Shown here: in pieces, positions 230 to 61,543 of the stretch | How positions within the stretch are numbered: position 1 is the first letter of the stretch | How the letters are laid out: every line of letters starts with the position of its first letter | Assembly (NCBI RefSeq): GCF_036588685.1 | Contig: NC_086373.1 | Coordinates: 21,204,001 to 21,268,000, forward strand | Length of the DNA stretch: 64,000 bases | From: Mytilus trossulus | Lineage: Eukaryota | Reading direction: 5' to 3' | Translations under genes and position numbers: made by a program | Notes under the pieces: generated by a model | Database searches by the model: none | The model's input: the letters and a program-made list of their open reading frames with translations, nothing else | Told to the model about the DNA's origin: nothing

Positions 230-910
230 GACTTGTTTACCTGAGCTACGTAACGATATTTCACAGGAGGTTGAAATCCTATCAATGAGGGTCTATAAAT
301 ATGTCAACTCGACTATCACAGTAGAGCTTCTCTCGTAGAGAGAAGCGAGAGAAGCTCTACGAGAGAAGCTCTACTGTGATAGTCGAGTTGACATATTTAT
401 AGACCCTCATTGATAGGATTTCAACCTCCTGTGACGAGAGAAGCTCTACTGTGATAGTCGAGTTGACATATTTATAGACCCTCATTGATAGGATTTCAAC
501 CTCCTGTGGATATTTTCAACAAGCTACAAGATGAGTTCAGTGACTATCAGTTGACCCCATTAGATGAACTTCCACTTTGCACTTCCCCTGAAACTGACAT
601 TGGTACATTTTGGGGAGAAATGTCCAAGTTGCATGACATTTTTCTTAACAAGCCAAGATTTTTTGTTTTGTCAAAACTTGCTAAAACATTACTGGTTTTG
701 CCAAACAGCAATGCAGACAGTGAGAGGGCATTTTCTTTAGTAAAGAAAATAGCTACAGAGTTTAGGGCTGATCTTAATAAGGATACACTGTGTGCTCTTC
801 TTTCTTGTAAAATGAATACACATTTGCATTGCTATGAACTGAAACCAAGTGCAGTTCTTTTAAAGAATGCCAAGTCTGCTTCTATGGAATATAACAATAG
901 TCTGAAATAA
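230..910 (+). pseudogene. hAT transposase C-terminal fragment interrupted by a MITE
   Basis: Removing 262-508 plus one GATATTT copy restores TCLPELRNDIFNKLQDEFSDYQL...SERAFS...NSLK*. The N-terminal catalytic part is absent. Confidence 0.8.
262..508. mobile_element. Palindromic MITE, CA...TG ends, 7-bp TSD (P-element-like)
   Basis: A ~74-bp arm (262-335) is inverted relative to two tandem copies (360-433, 435-508). GATATTT flanks both sides (255-261, 509-515). Confidence 0.75.
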
Positions 911-8135: not shown

Positions 8136-12340
<4,205 letters not shown>

Positions 12341-28420: not shown

Positions 28421-28632
28421 AATGCATGAGTGAAAATCAAGCTATATATTATGCCTTTACTTGACAAGTTTAGTGAAGTCTTGACCGGCGCCATGGCAAA
28501 AGCACAACTATTAGTGACGTCTTTGTGCTTTTTGGAATTGTGACGCTGTACATAGTTGCTGTTTTCTCCTTTTCCCGCAACAACAGAATAATTTCCAGTT
28601 GCTGGTGGATGTAGAAAAGAAAAGAGTAAACG

Positions 28633-29001
28633 ATGGGAAGCAGGAGCCCAAGTCCAAAGAAAGTGACATTCGCTGATGAACATCATAGACACAGTCATTC
28701 TGCTATTCCTGTAATACGCGACAACATGTCGTTCCTTCATAAGAGATTGGTCGAAATGATGGAGGAAGCTAGACAGCTCCGTGATGAAACTTCGTCGTTG
28801 GTGGGTGACTATTTAGATTTGGAGAAAAAATTTAGGGATCTTAGAGTTGTGACTAAAGAAACTATGAAAGAGGTAGAACAGCACAATCAGAACCTTGACG
28901 AAGTGATTTACCTCAACAAAGTCATTCGCCATTTAAAAGATGCTGACAATAACATGCAATATGTGCCTTGTGTAGTGTATAAGAATGATACATCTCGATA
29001 G
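28633..29001 (+). CDS. Intronless 122-aa predicted coiled-coil protein with an RVxF-like motif (KKVTFAD)
   Basis: ATG-started ORF with protein-like composition in AT-rich DNA, heptad pattern (LHKRLVEMMEEARQLRDE...LEKKFRDL...VEQHNQNL), and a divergent position 212 bp from the RING gene ATG. Confidence 0.65.
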   Translation: MGSRSPSPKKVTFADEHHRHSHSAIPVIRDNMSFLHKRLVEMMEEARQLRDETSSLVGDYLDLEKKFRDLRVVTKETMKEVEQHNQNLDEVIYLNKVIRHLKDADNNMQYVPCVVYKNDTSR

Positions 29002-33370: not shown

Positions 33371-34495
33371 AGTTTATTGAATTTGTGTACATCGATTAAA
33401 TAAAAATGTTATTCAACGTTGCATATAGCTACTAAAGACAATTTGAATACAATATAGAAAAAAAGACTAAGTACAGTTTTACTTTCAATTATGGAATGTT
33501 TGGTTTTTGTTAAAAATGTCTCCTTTGTATATTGTTTTATAAATCCTCAAAATTTGACAAAATCTACCACAATTGCTGCTACGTTCTGTATCTGGCTGTG
33601 AACATTTATCAAATGGTGATATTGTTGAAAATATGCTTCAAAGAATCTCACGTTGCACAAATGAAACTTCAGAAATTGGATGTATCTATATGTTGAAAAA
33701 GGAAAGTTTAAGTGAAGCGTATATCATTGCAGTAATTCTAAAAAAAATAGCGGTTCCATCATATTCTGTTGTATTTTGCCTTGTAAATATACAAAAGAAA
33801 TTGTGGTATGATTACCAATGAGACAACTATCCGCAAAAGACCAAAATGACACAGACATTAACAACTATAGGTCACCGTACGGCCTTCAACAATGAACAAA
33901 ACCCATACCGCATAGTCGGCTTTAAAAGGCCCCGTTAAAGACAATGTAAAACAATTCAAACGAGAAAACTAACGGCCTTATTTATGTAAAAAAAAACGAA
34001 AAACAAATATGAAAAAAGAAAATTTGAACATTTGTAAATGTTATCAATGTAGGAAACCAATATTAGCCGTACTTCAAAATATATTTTGATTTTCTGGTCT
34101 GTTGACATTGAAAAAAAAACTGTTTCGCACTATTGCACCTTTTACCATTAATTTTTATAAATGGATATGTGAATATTTTTCTATTACCCCTTAATTCCTT
34201 TCCCTCGATTAAGGGGTTTAAAAATCCACGATCAGATACTGTCTCTTCCTGTAGTGTTTTCAGTAATCTCTATAAGAAAAACATTCTCGAGTCGGAAGTC
34301 CCCGATTCAAGCAGCACCGTCTTCGGCATAACATGCCATAGTTACTATACTGTGTATTTAAAACTTGTGACAAGATATGTAAACATTTACTATATGAAAG
34401 TTTGTCCAATCAACAGTAGCTCTTAGTTGAAGTTTAGTATAAATAAAATAATTATACTATTTTCTACAAAGTGTGCGGTCCTACAGAAGACAACT

Positions 34496-37400
34496 ATGAA
34501 AGTTTTACTTAGTTTGTGTCTGTTAGTGGTTCTTATACAATATGTTCACGGGTAAGTCACAACATATATTTCTAGTGTATTGGAGGCCACATAATTTAAC
34601 AGTGGCAGAATCTGCGGCAAGTGACAAGTGTTTGTGTGTTTTGGCGGGTTTAAAATTGCTATTTTGAATATACAAATCTTTGTTTTGTAACGCAGGCATA
34701 TACCAAACATGACAACTGTTTTATCTATGACAATATGGAGTGAAGAACCTGGAAATAATCGTAATAGATTCTTGATTATAGTCAATCTTGGTAGCGAAGT
34801 AGTTATTTTTCAAAGAAAGTTCTGACGAATTTCTTTCACAATTCTTGTTGTTATTTATAGTCAAAGCATATCTTATGCAAGTTTTTAAATTGCTGAATGA
34901 TTCTATATTTCGTATTTAAATTGACTACAACAACGCAATTACCATAAATACTATTTAATATGGACAATATACAATGACGGATCTAGAATTTTTCGTAAGT
35001 GGGGGACTCTAATTTCCTTACAGAGGGCCCGCTCCGGTCATACTTCAGTGATTCCCTATATAATCAAGATTTTTTTTCCCAAGAAAAGGGGGCTCTGGTC
35101 CCTCTAAATCCGACTCTGATAATTTCAATTTCTGTTGTAGTTTGAATTGTGTAGTTACCAATAAGAGTCCTACATTTTGGCAATTTTGGGGACAGGTTGG
35201 CATTATAACGTGTCTGTTTTTAAATTTATAACACTACGTGATTGTACAATGGAAAAGTTTAGTTTACTAGTAACTTTTAAGTCATTATCAAAACTTAGTA
35301 ACTTTTTATCACGACTAAGTTAATAACAATTAAGTTAGCTAAGTCGAAAATAAAACTTCACCTTGATATTAACCGGATTCCGTATGATTGTCTGAAATCC
35401 TTTAATATCTAGGTAATTGAACTATTACAATGGAATAATATTGTAGTTTAACGATGACAATGTAGTAATACGGTAATACAACGATAGCAATGTTGTAATG
35501 TAACTTTCACAAGGAAGCTATTAAACCAAGAGTTCCAAATGGTGAAGTTGAAATCATCCCTTCGTAAATTTTACGGACGCCATCACGAGTTGGTTGACCG
35601 TTATGGAATAACCGTTTCACAAATAATATCGGATATGTTCCTTTCGTCGTAACTACAATCCCCTTCCCTTTCATGAATTTGACCTACCGAATTAGACAAT
35701 TTACCGGATTTGTAATCACATAAGCAACACGTCGGGTGCCGCATGTGGAGCAGGATCTGCTTACTCTTCCGGAGCACCTGAGATCACCCCTAGTTTTTGG
35801 TGGGGTTCGTGTTGTTTATTCTTTAGTTTTCTATGTTGTGTCATGTGTACTATTGTTTTTCTGTTTGTCTTTTTCATTTTTAGCCATGGCGTTGTCAGTT
35901 TGTTTTAGATTTACGAGTTTGACTGTCCCTTTGGTATCTTTCGTCCCTCTTTCACAATGTTGTAATGCAGTAATATAACTATTACAATGTAGTAATGTAG
36001 TAATATAACTATTACATTGAAGTAATGTAGTAATATAACAATTACAATGTAGTAATGCAGTAATTATAATTGTCAAAATGTAGTAATACAGAACATTTTG
36101 CCTATATGCCATACATAATTGTATTATTGATGATTTTCCAGAGGATGTCAGACGTGTTACACGACAGAAGAATACTTGTCAAAATATTACTCAAGCTGTG
36201 GTATGTTTGGGTGGAGTAGATGTACCAAAACAAGGTTAGTCCCTGATTAAGATCATAACACAATGTTGACCGCTGTATTTTTACATTTTTATCTATTATG
36301 TCTGGTTTTTTTGTTGTTTATGCATCGTTGTCAAAATAATTTGTTATCCATTCGTTTGATGTGTTTGAGCTTGTGATTTTGTCATTTGATTAGGGACTTT
36401 CCGTTTTGAATTTCCCTGGGAGTTCAGTATTTTTGTGATTTCACTTTTTCCATGATGTTTGGATGGAGAAGATGTGCTCGTACTAGGTAAATTCCTTCGT
36501 GTTTGAATTGAGAAGATGAAAATACAAGGTAAAATCCTTGCCTTCTATCATGCAAAATTAACAAATAGAATCATTTTCATAAAAGCGTGGGCAACCGCAA
36601 TACTTATGTAAGTAGTAAACTCAGTCTGTCCAAGGAGGTTATATGAGACCTTCAATCGGGGATTTGAATAGAATAAAAGAGTAAAGTACATGCAGGTGCC
36701 CGAGAAGAAACAACACGTACGATATGACAACTGTGCGTTACAGACGAACGTTCACCTAATCTGACCCAGTCAATTGATAACCTGAGCGCGCCAAAAAATG
36801 GTCATGTCCCGTCTGTTATGAAAAGGATTCTATTAAAAAGGCAATTAGGAATCAATAAAAACACATTTTTTTTTAATTTTTTATTTTCAGAACTTCAACC
36901 AGACAAAAATCATATTCATGCAAGTGTTCAGGTAAGTACTATGAAGTGTTGAAAATGTTTCCTAAATAAAGTTCAATCCATATATGTGACCAGCCACGAC
37001 ATATCCAGGCTTATGGAGGTAAAACGTCATTGTGAGAATATCGCCGTTAACTATATGTGACTAGCCATTTCCTGGCTTAGTTGGGTACATTGTCTAAAAT
37101 TTGATTTTTTTTATATTTATCTAAAATATTCCGAAACAAAACTCTCTGTCATGTTATTATGACATATTTGTTGTAATAGCAATGAAACGAGTCATTTCGA
37201 ATACCGGTATGAAAATGAGACTGTTCTATGACGACTTTTATTTATTGAAGCCACTAATTTATAAAACACAAAATTATTGTATTTATCGGCTTTTAGTGAT
37301 GTTGAATAGCGTATTTGAATAAAATTTCAAAGACTTAAATTTACTGCAATGCAAACAATTCTTAGCTCTATTTTAGAACATGTAATTTAAACTTGTTGAA

Positions 37401-40400
37401 ATGAAGTTAGTTTGAAATTTGTCAAAGTAAGCTTTAAGAATTCCTTTTTTTTTAATTTAGATTTATTATGCATGTCTCTATACATAGTGAGCGACGCGTA
37501 ACAGTTTATAAGTAGGTGTTATCATATATTAATTTGATACGGTGCATTTATTATGCTTCATTTATGAAAGAAACACTTTAGAGCAGAGCAGTATTTGTTT
37601 GTTTGTAGCTCTATTTTAGAACATTTAATTTAAACTTGTTGAAATGAAGTTAGTTTAAAATTTATCAAAGTAAGCTTTAAGAATTCCTTTTTTTAATTTA
37701 GATTTATTATGCATGTCTCTATACATAGTAAGCGACGCGTAACAGTTTATAAGTATGTGTTCTCTTATATGCATTTGATACGGTGCATTTATTATGGATA
37801 TATTTCAGACTTCATTTATGAAAGGAAATCTATAAAGCAGAAATTAGATTTTTTTTGTATCAATTTAAAATGTAGATTCAAATATTTTTCACTTCACACG
37901 ATAAAGTAAAACTTCTTCAAAACTTATATATGATGTATAGTTCGGCGTCCGCAAAAAAGAAGCCAACGAAAGTGTTTATCTTTTCTTCACACATACGTAT
38001 TTCATTGAATCTCGATATTTATCATGTTTATAATTTTTCTAACAATGACGTTCTACCTCCATAAGCCTGCAAATGTCATGGCGGGTCACATATATATAAC
38101 ATACATTGTACTATAGTATAATCACTATATACATATATAGAAGAAAAAAACCAGATGAAGAAATTGAAAATGAACGACTGAAACGACTCCAAAAAAACAC
38201 ATTCGAAGCTAACAAGCTGTTATTCACGGTTGACATTTGTTTTTGAATAGACCAATGAAATATTGAAGACTTGATTACTTTGATATGCCACTAGTCTAAA
38301 TGCCATGCAATCTCTCACCTGGTATGGTCTTTTCGGACCCCCATAAAAACCGTATTAGATGACTAGCACACTGTGTAACTTAATATTATTAATATTGTAT
38401 ACGCGTATATCATTATTGAATTGTGCATATACCGAGTAGTGCATATATAACCGGAAGAAAAGTGACAATGGGATCTTTTACTATAATTTGCAAAGTGCTT
38501 TTCAGGAACTCTCGTTTTGAATTGAATATGTATATGAACTCTCGTCTTGAATAGTTATATGAACTCTCGTTTTGAATATTTATATAAGTTTTCGTTTTAA
38601 ATGTTTCTTTATTCTGAAATATAATGTTTCTTATTTCAAATATCCAAAGAGATTATAGATTTACTATTTTACAACTTAATCCGATGGCTGTCAAAAGTGC
38701 TAAACTTACACTCAACTTTAAAAGAAGCAATTATCGCTATTTTATAAAGTTAAGCCGGAGGACAATGATCAGCTTATTATTACATAAGATTGGACAATTA
38801 TATTTATATTTTATGAGAACCTTTTATAATGTTTTAATACCCTTATCTTTGACTTAATTTATGTTTTGTAAACTGTTGCTGGGGCAGTCTTCCCCTAGCT
38901 TTCGAACTGTAAACTTGTGTGAATAAATTTGTATATATTTTTATACGGTCTTGCGTTTAAAGCAGCCATAGTGTCGATTATAGACCTACAGACTTTAATG
39001 TAACCCGTGCCGAACTTCACGGACTCATGCCGCAAGTTCACGGGGCTATAATTGGGAAGGACTCATCGATTACCGTAACCTTAAGCAGCCAAGCGAGTGT
39101 TTTACTACTGAACTAGTTCCAGTATACGAAATTTAAAAATGGAATGGAATTACTGAAAATGGAACATTTTAAAGCATTCAAAACCGAAAATGCAGACTGT
39201 GTTTTCTAGTTGTAACAACGGCAATGATGGAGCGGTTTACATATCGTGGACTTAGACCAGAGTATGTTGCTCCATGTGCTTTGCTAGCAGACATTACCAT
39301 TCAGATAAGATCGGAGCCAAAACCAGTCAAAATCAACAGTGCTATCAAGAAAACCCTAAACCACAAACACAACCCAGAAGTGATGGTAAGTGTGGTAAAT
39401 GCTGTCATATTTACGAACATTTTGAGAATGCACATTTTTACATTACCCCTATTATTTTAATATCTTTAATCTAGAACCGCCCCTAAATATATAACATTTG
39501 AATAGAAAATCCATGTTTTATCATAGTAGTGCTGAGTTCCACAAGTCATGCATATACATAAACCAAAGACAGGTTATGAAGTCTAGAAAAAGTTTCCCAA
39601 TCCAAATATTTTTAATCTGTTTGCAATTACAAACTGTTCAAGGGCCGATTGTTCAATAAATGTAAAAATAGGTTCTGTTTTCGATTTTCATTTTTACATT
39701 TAGAATTTATTAAGAACCAATTTCATTATTCTAAGATGAATCACCACTTTTTTTTTGGAGATATTTGCCACTGGTAGTAAGAACACCTCCATAAATCAAG
39801 CTAAAGTCTGTGTATCTTTGTTGTATCATAGAACCTAGTGTTTTACACAAGTGAAGGTTGTAACTTTGAACAAGGATCACTGACTTTAGTATACTGAAAT
39901 AACCACAATTATTGTTTTAGTTGTCGTTATTGTATCATTTAATACAACATGCTATAAGTAGGTAAATTTACACGTTTGAGCTTGTTCATCAATGGAATAT
40001 CGGTGGTGTAACAAAATCATTTTATAATACAATTTTGGTGCGAAACAAGAATGCAAGATGGACTCGTCATTTGTCTTGTGGTCTTGTTTCCGTTGGGTGT
40101 ACAGGAGTGACGACCTGTATACTACATGTCAGAAAATGCATTACTAAATATTTTGTTTGATCCAAACCTGCTTACAAGGTACAAATATAGCCACTGATAA
40201 TCTAATAATCCGTTTGAATTCTTGATAGTGTTTTCGAAAACCTTCCAGTATAGTGTAGTTTTGTTGGAATCATAAACGGGCCAATGCTAATTATTGCCAA
40301 CTCCTTTTTATTTTCCTCCAATTCTTTGAATATTTAGTCCTACTTTTATGATTATAGTAAAAGCAGCCGCAATTTGTTTTATAGATCTATACATATAATG

Positions 40401-43400
40401 GAGTCATGCTCTTTTGAGTTGTTAAGTTGAAATAGACATTTTAGTATATGTATGTCAGGAGTCCCCCTATACTCAGAGTGTTTTAGTATATTTAGATCAG
40501 GAGTCCCGCTCCTCAAAGCGTTAGTTTACTTATGTCAGTACTTCCCCTCCTCAGAGTATAGTATACTTATGTCAGAAGTCCCCCTCCTCAGAGTAGAATA
40601 TACTTATGTCAGAAGTCCCCCTATTCAGAGTACAGTAAACTTATGTCAGTAGTCCCCCTCCTCAGAGTTAGTATACTTATATCAGGAGTCCCGCTCCTCA
40701 GAGCGTTATTATATTTATGTCAGGAGTCCCCATGATACTCAGAGTGTTTTAGTATATTTATATCAGAAGTCCCGCACATCAGAGCGTTATGTCAGTAGTT
40801 CCCCCTCCCCAGAATATTAGTATATTTATGTCAGTAGTCACTCTCCTCAGAGTATTTAAGTAATGTGATGTCCCCCTCCTCATAACCCCCTTTGTATATT
40901 ATGAAAAGGTCCAATATATGTGCATTTTCTATGTTCGTGATGTTTTCAGTATGTACACACTTTCAGCAACCAGAAAGAGGAATTACCCATAGACGAATCA
41001 CCCATAGACGAATTACCCAAAGACGAATTACCCATAGATGAATTACCCATAGACGAATTACCCATAGACGAATCACCCATAGACGAATTACCCAAAGACG
41101 AATTACCCAAAAGACGATTTATCCCAAGACGAATTACCCATAGATGAAATAACATTACAAACCCAAATACGAAATGTAGCAATTTGTGCTCGGGACGAGC
41201 ACTTCGGGGAAGTAGTGGAGAATATAACCGGAAGAAAAGTGACAATGGGATCTTTTACTATAATTTGCAAAGTGCTTTTCAGGAACTCTCGTTTTGAATT
41301 GAATATGTATATGAACTCTCGTCTTGAATAGTTATATGAACTCTCGTTTTGAATATTTATATAAGTTTTCGTTTTAAATGTTTCTTTATTCTGAAATATA
41401 ATGTTTCTTATTTCAAATATCCAAAGAGATTATAGATTTACTATTTTACAACTTAATCCGATGGCTGTCAAAAGTGCTAAACTTACACTCAACTTCAAAA
41501 GAAGCAATTATCGCTATTTTATAAAGTTAAGCCGGAGGACAATGATCAGCTTATTATTACATAAGATTGGACAATTATATTTATATTTTATGAGAACCTT
41601 TTATAATGTTTTAATACCCTTATCTTTGACTTAATTTATGTTTTGTAAACTGTTGCTGGGGCAGTCTTCCCCTAGCTTTCGAACTGTAAACTTGTGTGAA
41701 TAAATTTGTATATATTTTTATACGGTCTTGCGTTTAAAGCAGCCATAGTGTCGATTATAGACCTACAGACTTTAATGTAACCCGTGCCGAACTTCACGGA
41801 CTCATGCCGCAAGTTCACGGGGTTATACATACCATTATTGAGTAATCTGTTATTGAGAAGTGTATGGAATATCCTTATTGAGTAAGTTTGGTTGCCGTTT
41901 GTATTTGTTTTTCGTTTATTTTTTTTACATAAATAAGGCCGTTAGTTTTCTCGTTTGAATTGTTTTACATTGTCTTATCTTATAGCTGACTATACGGTAT
42001 GGGCTTTGCTCATTGTTGAAGGCCGTACGGTGACCGATAGTTGTTAATGTCTGTGTCATTTTAGTCTTTTGTGGATAGTTGTCTCATTGGCAATCATACC
42101 ACATCTTCTTTTTTTTTTATATAATGCATATATCATTACTTAACGACAGTTATGTATGTCTTTAATGAATAATGTGTAGACCGTTATTCAGTAGAATATT
42201 TAACTGACCAATTCAATTGCAGTAAATGGAGGATGGAGTGGCTGGTCAACGAAAATCACATGGCGTAATGATTGTTCAACAACATGTGGATCAGGAATAG
42301 AAACAGGATACAAAACCAGAACTTGTACAAATCCAGCTCCTCAATACGGCGGCAGCAGTTGCTCTGGTTCTAGTACACAAACACAGCATCGATCATGTAA
42401 AATCATAGAATGTCCAAGTAAGCTATAAAGTTTACATTTGTACAAATTCTGGAGGGAATAAAGTCCCTTTTATTTTTGCATTTGTGATGGTTCGATTTGT
42501 GTTTCTTTATCATTTACTCGTTGTTTCTAATTTATTTGATTATTTTATTCTGATTCTCATATATATATTACTCATTTCAAACGTGTTGTTTTCCCCTTCA
42601 AATTGCGTATTAACTGAACCTGACTTCAGGAGCTCACGTTGTATGTTTAATCCAGTGTACTAGTTTTAGAAGTTTATTCTAAAACTGGGTGGTACATACA
42701 GTTCTTAAATCTTGTCAACATAACATACACTCTGTTTTTATACTTAAACCTGGTTTATGAAGTACATTATTTGTTTCATTCAAAAACATTGCCGATGAGC
42801 ATGCTTGTTTTTCACTCAATCCACCACATTTACTTCAAAAACATTGTATATGAACTGTTTTATCATTACTTTTATTTTTTAAAAACATCACATACGATAG
42901 CAATTAAGAAAATATATATTTTAGTTAATGGTGGATGGACATCTTTCTCTAAATATATATGGAACAACGATTGTTCAGCAGCATGTGGTGTAGGTGTAGA
43001 ATCGGGATATAGAACGAGATCATGTTCCAATCCTACCCCAGCATATGGAGGAAAAACCTGTTCTGGTGCAGCAACAGAAAAAGCAACTCGTAGTTGTAAG
43101 ATAAAGGAATGCCCAAGTAAGTCTTCCTTCGTTTTTCTTGCCATTTTTTCCTCTGTTAAGAATTTCCTCCACTTTTGTTTACGTAGTATTTTGTAATTTA
43201 AAATATAAGGTCATTTATAAAAAGCTTTTCTTAGAAAAATTGTAAAATGTGTTTCGATCCATAATTCAATTGGTTTTATTATTTTATCGTTATTTGCTTT
43301 GATCTCTCTATCACTATAACTTTTAACAAATTATAAACTGATTCAAACCAGAAAGTCTTTCAAGAAATGTTTTCAGCAGTTTTTAATTTCTGTTAAGGTG

Positions 43401-46400
43401 GTTTTGTTTTTTCATTTGTTTCACACGTTTAGTATAATTTCGCCTTCCGTAGATTTTCTTTGTTTTTTTTCTTTCAATCCTGTGCTTTTAATTTATAATC
43501 CACACAATATTTATAACAGTTGATGGACAATGGAGCGATTATTCTACAGTATCATGGAAAAATGACTGTTCAACAACTTGTGGCGTTGGAGTAGAAACAG
43601 GAATAAAAACAAGAACCTGTTCTAATCCGACACCAGCTTATGGTGGCAACCCATGTAAAGGAGATTCCTCATCTACGGAAAAACGGCAGTGTCAACTTAA
43701 AGAATGTCCCAGTAAGAATTAAACATGATTTTCTTATTTAACTTCGAATAACAACCGTTATCTTAACACAAGTTCTTTAATTTCTATTTTTACCAGTTAA
43801 AGCATGTCGAAACTTCTTTGTTTTCCTTACACTCAGAAAATTACTGTTATTTTATGTTTTAGAATTATCGTTTTATTTATATTTTTCGTAGTAATTTTTC
43901 CAAACTCTTTTCAAGGAATGTAAAATTTCTGATTTTGACGCATGAAGCAAACTTATCAAAATGAAATATATACATGTATATACTTGCTTTGATGAAATTA
44001 TATAGAAAATATAATTGAGAATTGAATAACATTGTTATGCCTTCACATATATAGTTTGTATTTTAATCTGTAAATACAATTTCTATTCAGACAATAAGTG
44101 AAACCCAATATTTGTCTTCCTTGAGAATTGTCTGAATTATTACAGAGATCAATAGGTACTTTTTTTGTTAAAATCCTTTAGAATATTTTGAATATCAAAG
44201 TACATGTATATTAATTTTAGTTGCTGGAGGTTGGACTGATTACTCAGTAGTCACGTGGAGTGGTAAATGTTCTACGACTTGTGACTTCGGAACAGAATCA
44301 GGAGTAAAAACCAGAACATGCACAAAGCCAGAGCCAGCTTTTGGTGGTAAACCATGTGTCGGAGAGTCTACGGCTACAGAGAATCGACAGTGCAAAGCTA
44401 AGGAATGTCCAAGTGAGCTATTCCTTCAACACTTAAAATTTAGATTGAAACTTCGGAAAAATAGAACGAGACCCCAGCACGCGTCTCATTTAAGGCGTGC
44501 ATTCACGAAGAGTGTATATAAAATATTTGATTGTTTTAAATTCATGTAGATAGAAATTAAGCAATTTCCAAGACAGAAAAAAAAACAATCTCATTCATAT
44601 CTAGGAGGTGTTTCTCCTTCAAATAGTAAGATGACACACAAAGAAGCTTGATGTACACATAGAACGAGACGCGTGCTGGCTACACTAATTAATTTGTATA
44701 GATTACTATATATAAATAGATAGAAAACTAGTGCAATTGGACTTCTTGGGGTCTGGGTGTATTGAATCAGTTAACCAAATGATTTACATTTGTTTCACTT
44801 TCATTGTCGACATTGTTTTCCTTTTAATAACTGAACACGCATAATTCATGCATACTACATCTCTAGCCCAGGGGTTAGATTGAAGTTCACATAATTACGA
44901 TTCAATGTAGTCCTATTATTCACTTGCAAGTGAATTATTTGACATCATCGATGTTTCTGAGCTTATTTTGACAAAATTGAACAACACTGGCTGCTAAAAG
45001 CGAATTATTATTTCACTATTTTACTTTCATCAATGATAGAACAGAAAAGGAAATCGCAAACATTTTAACATATACATATTGTTATATGTTATATCTTATT
45101 CATTCGCTGTTTTTATGACAATTCATATTTAATTAAGCAGCGTATTTTTATATGTTGAAGTTGATGGCGGATGGACTGAATACTCTCCTGTCACATGGAA
45201 AGGTGAATGTTCAACTACTTGTGACTTTGGAACAGAATCAGGTGTAAAAACAAGAACATGCACCAACCCATCACCAGCATATGATGGTAAAGATTGTGAC
45301 GGAGAGTTATCTGCTACAGAAAGTCGACAGTGTAAACTGAGAGAATGTCCAGGTAAGCTGGTTTTTAGAGTTAACCAAAAACATGCATTTTAAAATATAT
45401 ATCCCCTGCCTTAAACTTTGCTACTTTTGGAGTTTTTTTTGCATTTTTATTTTCTATTTAAGTTGATGGCAGCTGGAGTGAATACTCTCCTATCACATGG
45501 GGCGGTGAATGTTCAACTACTTGTGACTTTGGAACAGAATCAGGAGTAAAAACAAGAACATGCACCAACCCATCACCAGCATATGATGGTAAAGATTGTG
45601 ACGGAGAGTTAGCCGCAACAGAAAGTCGACAGTGTAAACTGAGGGAATGTCCAAGTAAGGTTTATGTCTTAATATATTTCAAAATTTGTTTTAGCAAAAC
45701 AGCACCACACCTTTTCCCCAAAGAAAATTTGAATAAGATGAACCAGAATTTTGTCAAATAAATACAAAAAAATGTTGTAGTAAGCGTCAATCATATATTA
45801 CTATTGCACATTCCAACTCTTTTTCTTTCTTCTTTAGTTGACGGTGGATGGTCCGACTATGGACCTTTCACAGAATGGAGTTCATGTTCTGTAACATGTG
45901 GCATGGGAATACAGACGAAGTCACATGACCGAACATGTACCAATCCGGAACCTCAGTATGGTGGGAAAGTATGTGAAGGAGAAAAAACCGAGACTGTGAG
46001 CAAAGACTGTGACATGGACAAATGTCCAGGTAAAAACTTAATGGAATTATTAATATTTTGCTGTATGAGAGTTTGAAAATCACTTTTAACATATATTTTC
46101 CAAGGCATGATCTGAAACATTATTTCGAAAGAAATTGATGGAAATTTGATAGAAAAAGAAAATACGGTAACAAATGCTTCGTTGATAACATTAGCACATA
46201 TTTCAATCTTTTGTTTATTTTTCAGAAACTATTTGTTCTGAACTGGGACAAGGACACACTTTCACTGCCCATTTACAGCAGTGCACAAAGTATTTGAACT
46301 GCTTAAATGGAGTAGTAACTGTGGCGAGTTGTAGTGATGGTACAGAATGGAACAATGACCAGAAGACATGCGCATTTCCTACAGCAGGTAGCACATGTCT

Positions 46401-47928
46401 GGCAACAGAACCAAATGGTACTATATAAAATACTTTATAAAACATATGTTTGAAAACCCGAAGCATAGCCAAATCCAGACTAAGTAAAATCTTTCCTTGA
46501 TTTAAAATAATTTACAAAACTTTTAAAAAGCCTATGTCAATCAAACGATAATCATTTTTTTATGCTAGTAACGAAATACTGACTTCATTGCTGGTGATGT
46601 CCTCGGAACATGTCATATTTCTTTACAGAATCCGTTTATTTCCGTTGAAATGAGAAAATGTCATCATGAAGTTTGATGATTTATCATTATTCACGGGTAC
46701 TTGCATTACTTACAGGATCTGCTTGTCATTCCAAAGCACTTGAAATCCCCTAAAGTTTTGATATCAAGGGTTCGTGTTGCTTAGTCATTAATTTTCAATG
46801 TTGTGTTTTGTGTACTGTTGTTTGTCTGTCTTTTTCTATTTTAGCCACGGCGTTGTCAGTTTATTTTCGATTTATGTCCCTCTGGTACCATTTGCCCCTC
46901 TTTTAAGTAATTATGTTTCATTTAAGATGAAGGAGTATCGTGTCAATTTCACGGACAACATCTTTCACATCCAACTGATTGTCACAAGTTTTATCAGTGT
47001 GTTGGCACTACACCAAACGAGATGTCGTGCAGTAATGGTTTAGCTTGGAATGAAGTAATTGGAAACTGTGACCATGCAGTAAATGTAGAACTTTGTAATG
47101 TAAATAATCCAGATGATGGCGCTGCTGATGCGGAAGATGATACAAATGAGTCAGTGATAGGTAATACATATGTATGGATATATTTTCTGTATTAGATTTT
47201 GGAACATTCAAATGCAATAAAGAAAATTAATTTTGGTCAGATAACAACTTAATTTTCAAACAGCTACCTTCTTTGCTTAAATTTCAAACAGTTGCCTGCC
47301 GACTCCGCATTTTTAAAACCAGAAATATGAGAACAGATTTATTGATATTCATTTGCATACTGTCGATTTATGTTTTGTTTGATTTTCATGGAACGACAAT
47401 AGGAAAGGACCAAACTACATTCTGGCAAGAATCTACCAGAGAATTCAATTTAACTGACAAACAATTCAAAAACTTAGGGCTCTTTTACATTTCAAACATG
47501 TCCTTTACAGCCAAAATGAAAAATGTTCATAAAAAAGAAACAAATTTCAATTTTTTTTCAATTTTTTTTTTAAATCTTCCACATATAAAGTTTATCTCAG
47601 TCAATCTAAAGTTTATAGTTCTGTATTATTTTAGACTAAATCAATTATCAGTTATGAATCATTTCACAAACAGAAACTTTTAACAAATCCAAAAAATCCT
47701 GAATTTCAGTCAGGTAGACAGCATGAGCAATCAGCATTATATAACTGAATTTTGATACATATTTTCCCATCCACAGAGGAGTTTGTCTGTGGAGGACATA
47801 CCGGTTACTTTGCTGATCCTAAAGAGTGCACCAAATACTACTGGTGTGTAGCTGGACAGAAATACCACATGCCGTGTGCTGCAGGAACTCATTTTGAAAA
47901 TGGAGGGTGTGTCGCAGGAACATGCTAA
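34496..47928 (+). CDS. Secreted protein: signal peptide + Cys-rich module + 7 thrombospondin type-1 repeats + 3 CBM14 (peritrophin-A) chitin-binding domains, 704 aa
   Basis: Exons 34496-34551, 36142-36234, 36891-36931, 42223-42417, 42925-43116, 43520-43711, 44221-44412, 45161-45352, 45463-45654, 45838-46029, 46226-46417, 46927-47160, 47777-47928; all GT-AG; 2115 nt in frame. [19 protein letters not shown] signal; seven GxW...CSxTCxxG...TRTCTNPxP.YGG..C.G repeats; three 6-Cys modules such as [12 protein letters not shown]...[10 protein letters not shown]...CD..C. Confidence 0.9.
35513..35948 (+). mobile_element. 5'-truncated Penelope-like retroelement fragment with TSD; shorter related copies near 5570-5765, 46715-46905, 52475-52645, 56950-57015
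   Basis: Encodes [37 protein letters not shown], is flanked by CTTTCACAA (35504-35512, 35949-35957), and interrupts a ~30-bp GTAAT/ATTACAAT minisatellite. Confidence 0.65.
36985..38090. mobile_element. Non-autonomous DNA transposon, TGT...ACA ends at a TATA site (Ginger-like), with an internal ~240-bp duplication
   Basis: Imperfect ~50-bp TIR TGTGACCAGCCACGACAT..CAGGCTTATGGAGGTA.AACGTCATTGT, TATA on both sides, and a direct repeat at 37363-37570 / 37606-37820. Confidence 0.65.
40440..40885. repeat. ~32-bp minisatellite inside the LTR element
   Basis: Repeats of TAGTATACTTATGTCAGGAGTCCCCTCCTCAGAG-like units. Confidence 0.85.
40978..41145. repeat. 15-bp minisatellite (GACGAATTACCCATA)n
   Basis: About 11 tandem units; explains the NSSMG repeat in ORF 40946-41245. 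Confidence 0.9.
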
Positions 47929-48514
47929 TGAGTTTAGTATAGTTACATTTATTATTTTTGTGTAGTTTAAACACCATAATTCAAATATTCTGTATGAAGA
48001 CATTAGAATTTTTTTAAGGAAGTCTTTTTTTATACATGGATACCACAAAAATAAATTCCAAACAGGGAAGTCAATAAAACCTGACAAAGAGAAACGCTCG
48101 AATACATCAGCAAACGGAAACCTTGTAAAACAACTGTTATATTCATTACTTGGTAAAATAATTTCTGATGAAAAGAGATAGCTAGCTGGTAATGTAAGCG
48201 CATATTAACAAACAATATTTACAATGATTTTTGAATACTAAACGAAGGCTTTGATTAGATTCGGTAGCATGTTTGAGGACAATAAAATATGATGACTTTT
48301 ACTTTTCAGGTCAGATAAAACAACGACAAGATATTGTGTAGGAGGATACGAACAGGACGATGCATCTGTTTTATGACTATTCTATTGTTAATTATTTATT
48401 TTTTATTTTATATTTTTGTATTATAATTATCTTCTTCAATATTATAATCATTAAATAAGTACTTGCAATTTGTTGATCAAATAGTCTTGTCATTTAAAAC
48501 TGTATTTTTTTAAC

Positions 48515-60500: not shown

Positions 60501-61543
60501 ATTGACGTTTTTGGAGAAAATAGAGCAATTATCATACCTTTGTGTGATTTTTCAAACGCACTACAGTATTCTAAACTGAAATTAAAATGTTGTATTTTGG
60601 CTATTCTGTTTATATTAATCACTCGTTCTTCAATGCCATTGAAAGTATCAAGACCCAAAACAGCATGTGACTCAAAGCAAATTTCATCACAATTCCATCA
60701 TCTTGAAACATTATCATATGTATTGCTTGGAAAGAATAATAAACGTTTCATACTAATTTTTAATGTTTTATTTTGTAGTGGAAATGGCATCGAGCTATTT
60801 ACTGGACGATTCGTGTTATAATGGCAGCATATGCTCTCGGAGCTGTAATGACAGTCTATGTGATGTCCGTCGGAGAAAAACATGTAGTTCTTGTGTATTT
60901 AACCATTTGGACATTCACATTGCTTACAATACATCTATGGATAGCAACAGTCATAACAATATTCTACAGACCAACTATGAATAAATCTGGTGAGAAAATG
61001 CATGGTGTTACAAATCCTGATTTTCTACCTTCAAGTGTTGAAAGTACTCTGTCACAAACAGCAGACTCGAACAGAAACAACATAGAAGAAGATAAAAGAT
61101 ATATTCCTTGGTTCCTAAAATTGTCATGGTTGCTTGGAGATGTCGTGTTATCGTTTGAAATTGTGGTTTCAATAATTTACTTTGTATTTTTATTTCCGGA
61201 TAAGGAAAACAGGGGTGTGTTAATCAACGACATGAATATGCATGCCATGAATACAGTGTTTGTGTTGATTGATTTTTTTATAAGTGCAAGACCTGTTTAT
61301 TTGCTGCATGTAATTTACCCAATTATATATGGAACTATCTATGCTATATTTAGTGCCATTTACTGGACACAAGACCACGTGAACAATGTACTATATTCTG
61401 TTCTAGACTGGAATAGTCCAGGTAATGCTGTTGGTCTGGTAGTGATTTTAGCTGTTGTCATTCTACCTTTGTTTCAACTTATATTTTTTGGATTGCATCG
61501 TTTGAAGTTGAAAATCTATTATCATTTATATAAGACGACATAG
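57541..61543 (+). CDS. rost: Protein rolling stone-like multi-pass membrane protein (FAR-17a/AIG1-like), 282 aa; exons 57541-57624, 60779-61543
   Basis: MCDIFKAEFKLKNFRFPCSKPEALYTCQ|WKWHRAIYW... followed by YLTIWT, KLSWLL, MHAMNTVF.LIDF, HVIYPIIYG..Y..FS.IYW and LYSVLDW motifs; about 6 hydrophobic segments; phase-0 GT-AG intron. Confidence 0.88.
60404..60720 (-). pseudogene. Possible decayed L1/Tx1-type endonuclease fragment in the rost-like intron
   Basis: WNCDEICFESH...IPKEILGVGEITVGEIN resembles the AP-endonuclease W....SHG and IIVGDFN motifs; stops present. Confidence 0.35.

What the first reader, a model, noticed from the sequence alone, without database searches (positions are those of the whole stretch)
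34496..47928. Hidden 13-exon secreted protein: unnamed Cys/Trp module + 7 atypical TSP1 + 3 chitin-binding domains
Seen: the ORF track shows only 2 of the 13 exons, but splicing gives a 704-aa frame. The N-terminal module [44 protein letters not shown] (6 Cys) is not a domain I can name. The TSP1 repeats carry short insertions (TWxNDC/TWxGEC, ExGxKTR) and mostly lose the WSxW second Trp. Known: CBM14 binds chitin and TSP1 repeats form extended rods. Inference: a rod-like linker that tethers an N-terminal module to chitin, in shell matrix, gut lining or pathogen recognition.
Basis: partly seen in the sequence, partly recalled or inferred. Interest (0 to 1): 0.7.

Follow-up and report, generated by a model that had tools for sequence, protein, structure and literature searches.

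The report
Mollusc chitin tether with hairpin head
A spliced mussel gene encodes a predicted secreted protein with a small cysteine-rich head, seven thrombospondin repeats and three chitin-binding-type domains, a design shared with oysters and snails, which likely holds an unnamed, mobile, predicted hairpin domain (possibly related to EMI domains) at a distance from chitin.

Summary
The gene is real: 13 exons with GT..AG introns give 704 aa without a stop, and contigs of four runs join 10 of 12 introns, including exons 1-2-3-4. It is not hidden: Mytilus databases hold it as 'coadhesin-like', an automatic name. The design (head + TSP1 array + 2-3 CBM14) recurs in six mollusc genera.

The head has no Pfam or PDB match. 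It is a mobile domain with a C-G-x-x-x-W-x-R-C tip. Its outer cysteines sit at mirror-equal distances from the tip in 13 of 17 members, and AlphaFold models a long two-stranded hairpin. It also heads TSP1-only arrays and EGF proteins in mussel, clam and amphioxus, some closed by the EMI-type CCxGY motif. All 10 mussel copies have a GT at one shared intron position. EMI membership stays unproven: the direct profile score against a MEGF10-like EMI is null.

Likely function: a polar rod tethering a basic, aromatic head to chitin. Chitin binding, tissue and ligand are untested, and the nearest solved CBM14 relative (Aplysia EHEP) does not bind chitin.

The parts
34496..34551 (+). Exon 1: predicted signal peptide (aa 1-19)
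   Evidence: ATG, hydrophobic stretch (11-aa hydropathy 3.4; no other hydrophobic segment); joint to exon 2 in run X3
36142..36234 (+). Exon 2: first strand and Cys-Gly...Trp-x-Arg-Cys tip of the head module (aa 19-50); ends in a phase-2 intron 11 nt after the second tip Cys
   Evidence: no Pfam hit
36891..36931 (+). Exon 3: return strand of the head module (aa 50-64)
   Evidence: joints in 3 runs (intron 2) and 4 runs (intron 3)
42223..42417 (+). Exon 4: TSP1 repeat 1
   Evidence: Pfam TSP_1 E 6.6e-4, below cut-off; joints
42925..43116 (+). Exon 5: TSP1 repeat 2
   Evidence: Pfam TSP_1 E 2e-6; joints
43520..43711 (+). Exon 6: TSP1 repeat 3
   Evidence: Pfam TSP_1 E 4.9e-5; joints
44221..44412 (+). 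Exon 7: TSP1 repeat 4
   Evidence: Pfam TSP_1 E 1.6e-5; joints
45161..45352 (+). Exon 8: TSP1 repeat 5
   Evidence: Pfam TSP_1 E 0.0022, below cut-off; 93% identical in DNA to exon 9
45463..45654 (+). Exon 9: TSP1 repeat 6 (recent duplicate of exon 8)
   Evidence: Pfam TSP_1 E 0.0021, below cut-off; its two joints are not among the rows shown
45838..46029 (+). Exon 10: TSP1 repeat 7, the most canonical
   Evidence: Pfam TSP_1 E 4e-13
46226..46417 (+). Exon 11: CBM14 (peritrophin-A) domain 1
   Evidence: Pfam CBM_14 E 5.8e-10; nearest PDB sequence EHEP
46927..47160 (+). Exon 12: CBM14 domain 2 and acidic linker
   Evidence: Pfam CBM_14 E 1.3e-12; nearest PDB sequence EHEP
47777..47928 (+). Exon 13: CBM14 domain 3 and stop
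   Evidence: Pfam CBM_14 E 6.5e-9; an X3 contig runs through the stop to at least 48000

Best explanation
This spliced mussel gene encodes a predicted secreted protein of one head module, seven TSP1 repeats and three CBM14 domains, which likely acts as a polar tether: the CBM14 end would sit on chitin, and the TSP1 array would hold a predicted disulfide-laddered hairpin head out to bind a protein or polyanion partner. Shown: splicing, domain order, the family in six mollusc genera, the head as a mobile domain, and a basic-to-acidic charge trend from head to tail. Predicted: secretion, the hairpin fold, nested disulfides. Inferred and untested: chitin binding, rod shape, the head's partner, and the tissue (shell matrix, periostracum or chitinous gut lining).
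For: Spliced, intact gene with a signal-like N-terminus and no membrane segment. Three CBM14 over the Pfam cut-off; a homologue's modelled CBM14s match chitin-binding folds at Z 4.6-6.4. The order head - TSP1 array - CBM14 is kept in Mytilus, Ostrea, Littorina, Patella, Haliotis and Babylonia, while the TSP1 number varies widely, as expected of a spacer. Repeat number also varies among Mytilus models (641-772 aa). The head is the most conserved part among the close Mytilus proteins (98-100% against 84-95% for TSP1). Head net +5, last three TSP1 and all CBM14 acidic. First-minus-last TSP1 charge is positive in 13 of 13 family proteins (median 9) against 20 of 24 other arrays (median 3) (relatives are not independent). 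Mollusc shell proteins that combine TSP1 and chitin-binding domains are known, though with a VWA domain (passages of PMC6003135 and PMC8217771).
Against: The nearest solved relative of CBM14-1 and -2 is Aplysia EHEP (E 7.8e-9 and 8.7e-7; also the top fold hit), and EHEP and Der p 23 do not bind chitin (passage of PMC10619976). No proteome or expression record for this family turned up in the papers searched, so the tissue is unknown. Both models have low pTM (0.20, 0.34), so the rod is not shown. The head's pLDDT is only 42-51 in the Mytilus model, against 74-81 in the Patella model. The charge trend is present, more weakly, in unrelated TSP1 arrays. In M. californianus the head (84%) is no more conserved than the other domains.
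Confidence: 0.5

Rival explanations
1. A soluble gut or mucus protein whose peritrophin-A domains bind something other than chitin, such as dietary polyphenols, as Aplysia EHEP does; head and TSP1 array would keep it in mucus.
For: EHEP is the best PDB sequence match of two of the CBM14s tested (2 of 2) and the best fold match. EHEP also has three such domains and works in digestive fluid (passages of PMC10619976).
Against: The match may only reflect that EHEP is one of few molluscan CBM14 structures; a squid chitin-binding beak protein ranks second and third. EHEP has no TSP1 array or head (229 aa).
Confidence: 0.2
2. A secreted recognition or defence protein: the basic, Trp/Tyr/Arg-rich disulfide hairpin binds microbial surfaces, like cationic hairpin peptides (recalled resemblance, not tested), while CBM14 binds fungal or prey chitin or displays it on the animal's own chitin.
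For: Head pI about 9 with 7 aromatic residues in 44. The same head sits on EGF-rich proteins, one with a SEA domain and membrane anchor. EMI-bearing CED-1/Draper/MEGF10 are phagocytic receptors (introduction of PMC11349873). Short family members (260-360 aa) occur as near-identical copies in snails.
Against: The head is 98-100% identical among the closest Mytilus species, with no sign of diversification. No cleavage site of the R-x-K/R-R type releases it. No infection data were found.
Confidence: 0.2
3. The head is only a degenerate TSP1 repeat that lost its first strand, so the protein is an ordinary TSP1-CBM14 array.
For: Six Cys with similar spacing; the Atlas's only feature hits are TSP1 clusters, at a chance-level score of 0.76.
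Against: A profile of 50 TSP1 repeats scores all 17 modules within their shuffles, and hhalign gives 1.2%. The head has an internal phase-2 intron, whereas each TSP1 is one phase 1-1 exon. The head also occurs on EGF proteins in which Pfam finds no TSP1.
Confidence: 0.05

Closest known systems
RefSeq/GenBank Mytilus 'coadhesin-like' / 'hemicentin-1' models (XP_063419701, XP_071180066, XP_076100380, VDI64388)
   Same: The same gene or its orthologues: 93-97% identical.
   Different: The names are automatic, from TSP1 similarity; no function is attached. The M. trossulus model lacks aa 1-39 and has another C-end; one M. edulis model fuses an upstream coiled-coil ORF.
EMI domain (Pfam PF07546; MMRN1, EMILIN, EGFL7, MEGF10/CED-1/Draper)
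   Same: Single, N-terminal, Cys-rich, two antiparallel strands, three disulfides (section and passages of PMC11990869). Paralogous heads end in CCxG[YF] before EGF repeats. The intron falls at the same offset as in a MEGF10-like mussel gene.
   Different: No Pfam EMI hit; shorter (44 aa against 69 profile positions); this protein lacks CCxGY; direct profile score against the MEGF10-like EMI is null.
Shell matrix proteins with VWA + TSP1 + chitin-binding domains (Haliotis laevigata idb_25730; Tridacna crocea Tcr_684094)
   Same: Secreted mollusc proteins joining TSP1 and CBM14 (table passages).
   Different: They carry VWA; this family has none, and has the hairpin head and up to ten or more TSP1.
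EHEP of Aplysia kurodai (PDB 8in3)
   Same: Three peritrophin-A domains; nearest solved sequence and fold.
   Different: No TSP1 array or head; binds polyphenols, not chitin.
Coadhesin of Acropora (source of the automatic name)
   Same: TSP1 repeats; reported in coral skeletal matrix (passage of PMC9498863).
   Different: Recalled, not tested: a membrane protein with F5/8C and VWA domains and no CBM14.

Membership tests
EMI domain (PF07546) | Match to the Pfam EMI model | tested here: not met
   No EMI hit for 7 head pieces, for whole proteins with the head, or for 11 paralog exons at E up to 10. HMMER's filters drop weak matches, and the paralogs could be scanned only exon by exon.
EMI domain (PF07546) | Single copy at the mature N-terminus of a secreted or surface protein | tested here: met
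   One copy right after the signal peptide in the full-length proteins read. One 1799-aa Littorina model holds three, each after its own signal peptide, so probably three fused genes.
EMI domain (PF07546) | Two antiparallel strands held by three disulfides | tested here: inconclusive
   AlphaFold gives a two-strand hairpin and Cys spacing is mirror-symmetric, but disulfides were not read from the models. No solved EMI structure exists to compare (PMC11990869); the fold searches were filled by TSP1 and CBM14.
EMI domain (PF07546) | C-terminal CCxG[YW] closure before EGF repeats (motif name recalled) | tested here: not met
   Absent in this protein; present in 4 of 10 mussel paralogs and in the Mercenaria protein, which score 27-46 bits on the head profile against at most 7 for controls.
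EMI domain (PF07546) | Detectable homology to a MEGF10/CED-1-type EMI | tested here: inconclusive
   One mussel MEGF10-like gene tested (its EMI exon: E 0.0024, below cut-off). Direct score -5.9 bits. Via the CCxG-closed set 7.3 bits, above 200 shuffles and 300 decoys, but hhalign aligns only the 9 columns around CCxGY (17%). The intron offset matches only if its second of three possible Cys is taken as the tip Cys.
TSP1 repeat (group 1) | Six Cys and Pfam TSP_1 match | tested here: met
   7 of 7 repeats have six Cys and a hit; 4 of 7 over the cut-off; a homologue's repeats match solved TSRs by fold.
TSP1 repeat (group 1) | WxxW Trp ladder in strand A | tested here: not met
   1 of 7 here; 3 of 17 Mytilus and 15 of 44 other family repeats against 228 of 241 control repeats caught by one pattern.
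CBM14 / peritrophin-A | Pfam CBM_14 match over the cut-off | tested here: met
   3 of 3.
CBM14 / peritrophin-A | Binds chitin | not testable with these tools
   Some members do not, and binding residues are not conserved across the family (PMC10619976).
Pif/BMSP-type VWA-chitin-binding shell proteins | VWA domain with the chitin-binding domains | tested here: not met
   No VWA in the whole-protein Pfam scan of the 93% identical P0010.

The most novel reading that the evidence does not exclude
The head is an undescribed mobile domain of molluscs and amphioxus: a length-tunable, disulfide-laddered beta-hairpin (8, 10, 14 or 26 residues per arm) with an invariant Cys-Gly...Trp-x-Arg-Cys tip, derived from or ancestral to the EMI domain. 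It is shuffled onto TSP1-CBM14 tethers, TSP1 arrays and EGF receptors as a common ligand-binding probe, and in this family is displayed on chitin at a distance set by the number of TSP1 exons.
Probability: 0.35. Interest if true: 0.6.

Novelty: new variant of a known kind. Interest (0 to 1): 0.42.

Why it matters
Dozens of mollusc proteins named 'coadhesin-like', 'hemicentin-like' or 'SCO-spondin-like' by automatic annotation are one family with a fixed design and an unnamed head. The head can now be defined as a profile. At about 40 residues it is small enough to make and solve, and EMI domains have no crystal structure according to a 2025 review. If the tether reading holds, it names a candidate link between chitin and the soft matrix of mollusc shell or gut. 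The parts are otherwise familiar, so the surprise is moderate.

Tried and rejected
No RNA holder was on record as RNA; the spliced contigs are the evidence, not the labels. Contig depth differed widely between runs but cannot rank expression, and tissues are not given.

A search with the head region alone found only Mytilus (3 of 3 candidates); a search with the Mercenaria head found only itself. The head profile had no PDB sequence match, nor had the MEGF10-like EMI exon. The Atlas gave chance-level TSP1 hits for the head and nothing for the amphioxus head. A Littorina head found nothing in the own genome.

The DNA pattern for the tip gave 6 matches against 4 in the reversed control; only 3 of the 6 look like real exons. 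The Pfam EMI search of the own genome gave 2 weak matches, one of them spurious. Fold searches did not test the head, as TSP1 and CBM14 filled the lists. The head as a degenerate TSP1 was rejected.

One search used a wrong acceptor for paralog L011; one search repeats the test with it corrected. The rank test holds one mistyped value and treats relatives as independent, so it is not used.

Literature: ten searches found no paper on this family. Supplements: 12 of 27 files of PMC6003135 searched, no TSP1-type term found; the one file of PMC13425148 listed no protein with both TSP1 and CBM14 in the rows shown. Mytilus shell, byssus and haemolymph proteomes outside this library could still hold the protein. 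Earlier findings of the scan held nothing relevant.
Full report
1. The observation. Reading the window and splicing at GT..AG sites gives 13 exons and a 704-aa frame with no internal stop. Contigs of four public runs from four studies were laid on 34200-48200. They skip nine introns exactly at the predicted ends, among them introns 1-3 that tie the signal peptide and head to the TSP1 exons. Intron 12 is joined in all four runs with seven letters between, which fits an allele with one more codon, as in P0010. Introns 8 and 9 are not among the rows shown; exons 8 and 9 are 93% identical. The tool only guesses that these runs are RNA, but exact intron skipping is what spliced RNA gives. Pfam finds TSP_1 in exons 4-10 (4 of 7 over the cut-off) and CBM_14 in exons 11-13 (3 of 3). 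All repeats keep six Cys, only one keeps WxxW, and six have WxxxC. The N-terminus is hydrophobic and no membrane segment follows.

2. It is an annotated Mytilus gene. A search with exon 4 returned 140 proteins (120 listed), with Mytilus proteins at 91-95% identity. Their clusters carry RefSeq names 'coadhesin-like' in four Mytilus species. The window protein is identical over aa 40-697 to the M. trossulus model, which lacks the first 39 residues and ends differently, and 93% identical to full-length M. edulis and M. galloprovincialis models. Models of 641 to 772 aa differ mainly by whole TSP1 repeats.

3. It is a mollusc family. Ostrea, Littorina and Patella proteins have the same order: signal peptide, head, TSP1 array, CBM14. 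A profile of ten heads run over 1.84 billion representatives found 12 proteins at E up to 0.001. Three were in the query. Five are new head-TSP1-CBM14 proteins (Haliotis twice, Babylonia, Patella, a Mytilus paralog), two are EGF proteins (Mercenaria, Branchiostoma) and two are unnamed fragments. The full design thus occurs in six genera of bivalves and gastropods. Loss of the second Trp is a family trait: WxxW in 18 of 61 family repeats against 228 of 241 control repeats caught by one pattern.

4. The head is a mobile hairpin domain. The tip C-G...W-x-R-C is invariant in the alignments. The distance from the tip to the next Cys is equal on both sides in 13 of 17 members, at 8, 10 or 14 residues (Spearman 0.92; five near-duplicates and the amphioxus protein were dropped, and the latter shows 26/26; members are related, so the p-value is not meaningful). 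Arms that lengthen together are what an antiparallel hairpin with nested disulfides would show. AlphaFold gives that hairpin: strands 20-36 and 42-58 at pLDDT 74-81 in the Patella protein, and 24-38 and 44-58 at pLDDT 42-51 in the Mytilus protein.

5. Copies in the own genome. Searches found nine more head exons. All ten, the window's included, have a GT 11 bases after the second tip Cys (eight by pattern, two read by eye; RNA confirms only the window's). Three lead into TSP1 exons. Four lead into an exon ending in CCxG[YF]xGxxC, and EGF-like repeats follow in the two examined. For two no next exon was seen, and one of these has a stop. The CCxG-closed forms and the two EGF proteins score 27-46 bits on a profile of the TSP1-linked heads, against at most 5.5 for 300 Cys-rich decoys and 7.0 for 200 shuffles each. 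A TSP1 profile does not recognise the head.

6. Is it an EMI domain? By a review (section 13 and passages of PMC11990869) EMI is single, N-terminal, has three disulfides and two antiparallel strands, mediates protein interactions and has no crystal structure. The head shares position, copy number and predicted shape, and its paralogs have the CCxGY ending. A mussel gene with a weak EMI match (E 0.0024) followed by laminin-type EGF repeats, read as MEGF10/CED-1-like, has a phase-2 intron at the same offset if one of three Cys is taken as the tip. Against membership: no Pfam EMI hit for any head; a null direct score against that gene (-5.9 bits); and a two-step link (7.3 bits) that rests on the nine columns around CCxGY. 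I put common origin with EMI at about 55%, and do not file it as a member.

7. How it likely works. The ends are fixed and the middle varies in length, which suggests a spacer between two binding ends (inference). The head and first two repeats are basic, the last three repeats and all CBM14 acidic. This trend holds in 13 of 13 family proteins (median 9 charges) and more weakly in 20 of 24 other TSP1 arrays (median 3). Seven repeats would span roughly 35 nm (recalled, about 5 nm each; the models, pTM 0.20 and 0.34, do not fix the shape). The best reading is a secreted tether from chitin to a protein or polyanion (0.5). The main caution is that the nearest solved CBM14 relative is Aplysia EHEP, which does not bind chitin (passages of PMC10619976); a gut protein of that kind is the first rival (0.2). 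A defence role for the basic aromatic head is the second (0.2); the head's 98-100% identity among close species does not favour it.

8. Literature. Ten searches found no description of this family or head. I saw passages only of PMC13425148, PMC9498863, PMC10619976, PMC5549309, PMC6003135, PMC12817120 and PMC8217771, the introduction and passages of PMC11349873, and one section and passages of PMC11990869. The nearest described proteins are shell proteins with VWA, TSP1 and chitin-binding domains. Supplements were searched only in part, and subscription papers are not in the library.

9. Verdict. A real, expressed, automatically named gene of an undescribed mollusc family built from known parts plus an unnamed mobile hairpin with EMI-like features. 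New variant of a known kind; interest 0.42.

Noticed in passing
window 28630-28998 (+): A 123-codon coiled-coil-like ORF that one M. edulis model (P0124, CAG2218389) fuses to exon 2 in place of the signal peptide. Run X3 joins exon 1 to exon 2, so the fusion is probably a prediction error; that ORF lay outside the stretch laid.
   Followed up: partly
window 38435-39050 and 41211-41827: A 617-bp segment duplicated at 99.2% within intron 3, with two tandem arrays (about 40440-40850 and 40975-41150) between the copies.
   Followed up: no
window 39210-39385 (+): An exon-like open stretch with AG and GTAAGT ends inside intron 3. Its phases do not fit the gene, it has no Pfam hit, and all four runs skip it.
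   Followed up: partly
window about 48310-48375 (+): A small downstream exon used by the M. trossulus RefSeq model for another C-end that cuts the last two Cys of CBM14-3; not tested with RNA.
   Followed up: no
G000:C1:74.12-74.21 Mb (L011, L012, L030, L019-L025, L037-L040): Three tandem genes with the same head, followed by about 2, 12 and 17 TSP1 exons; two end in an acidic Asp/Glu-rich exon instead of CBM14.
   Followed up: partly
G000:C12:19.96-19.98 Mb (L005-L007): A gene with the CCxG-closed head, several EGF repeats and a 1053-codon exon with coiled-coil-like and Ig-like parts.
   Followed up: no
G000:C5:1.24 Mb and 1.87 Mb (L017, L036): A MEGF10/CED-1-like gene, and a second, 97% identical copy of its EMI exon 0.63 Mb away, listed with a TAA.
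   Followed up: partly
window 8139-11349 (-), 467-907 (+), 60779-61540 (+): Neighbours: a tubulin gene (alpha-type by its sequence, recalled), a hAT transposase fragment and a 'rolling stone' family gene.
   Followed up: no
P0137 (Littorina XP_070175940): A 1799-aa 'SCO-spondin-like' model with three signal peptide + head units, probably three tandem family genes fused by annotation.
   Followed up: no
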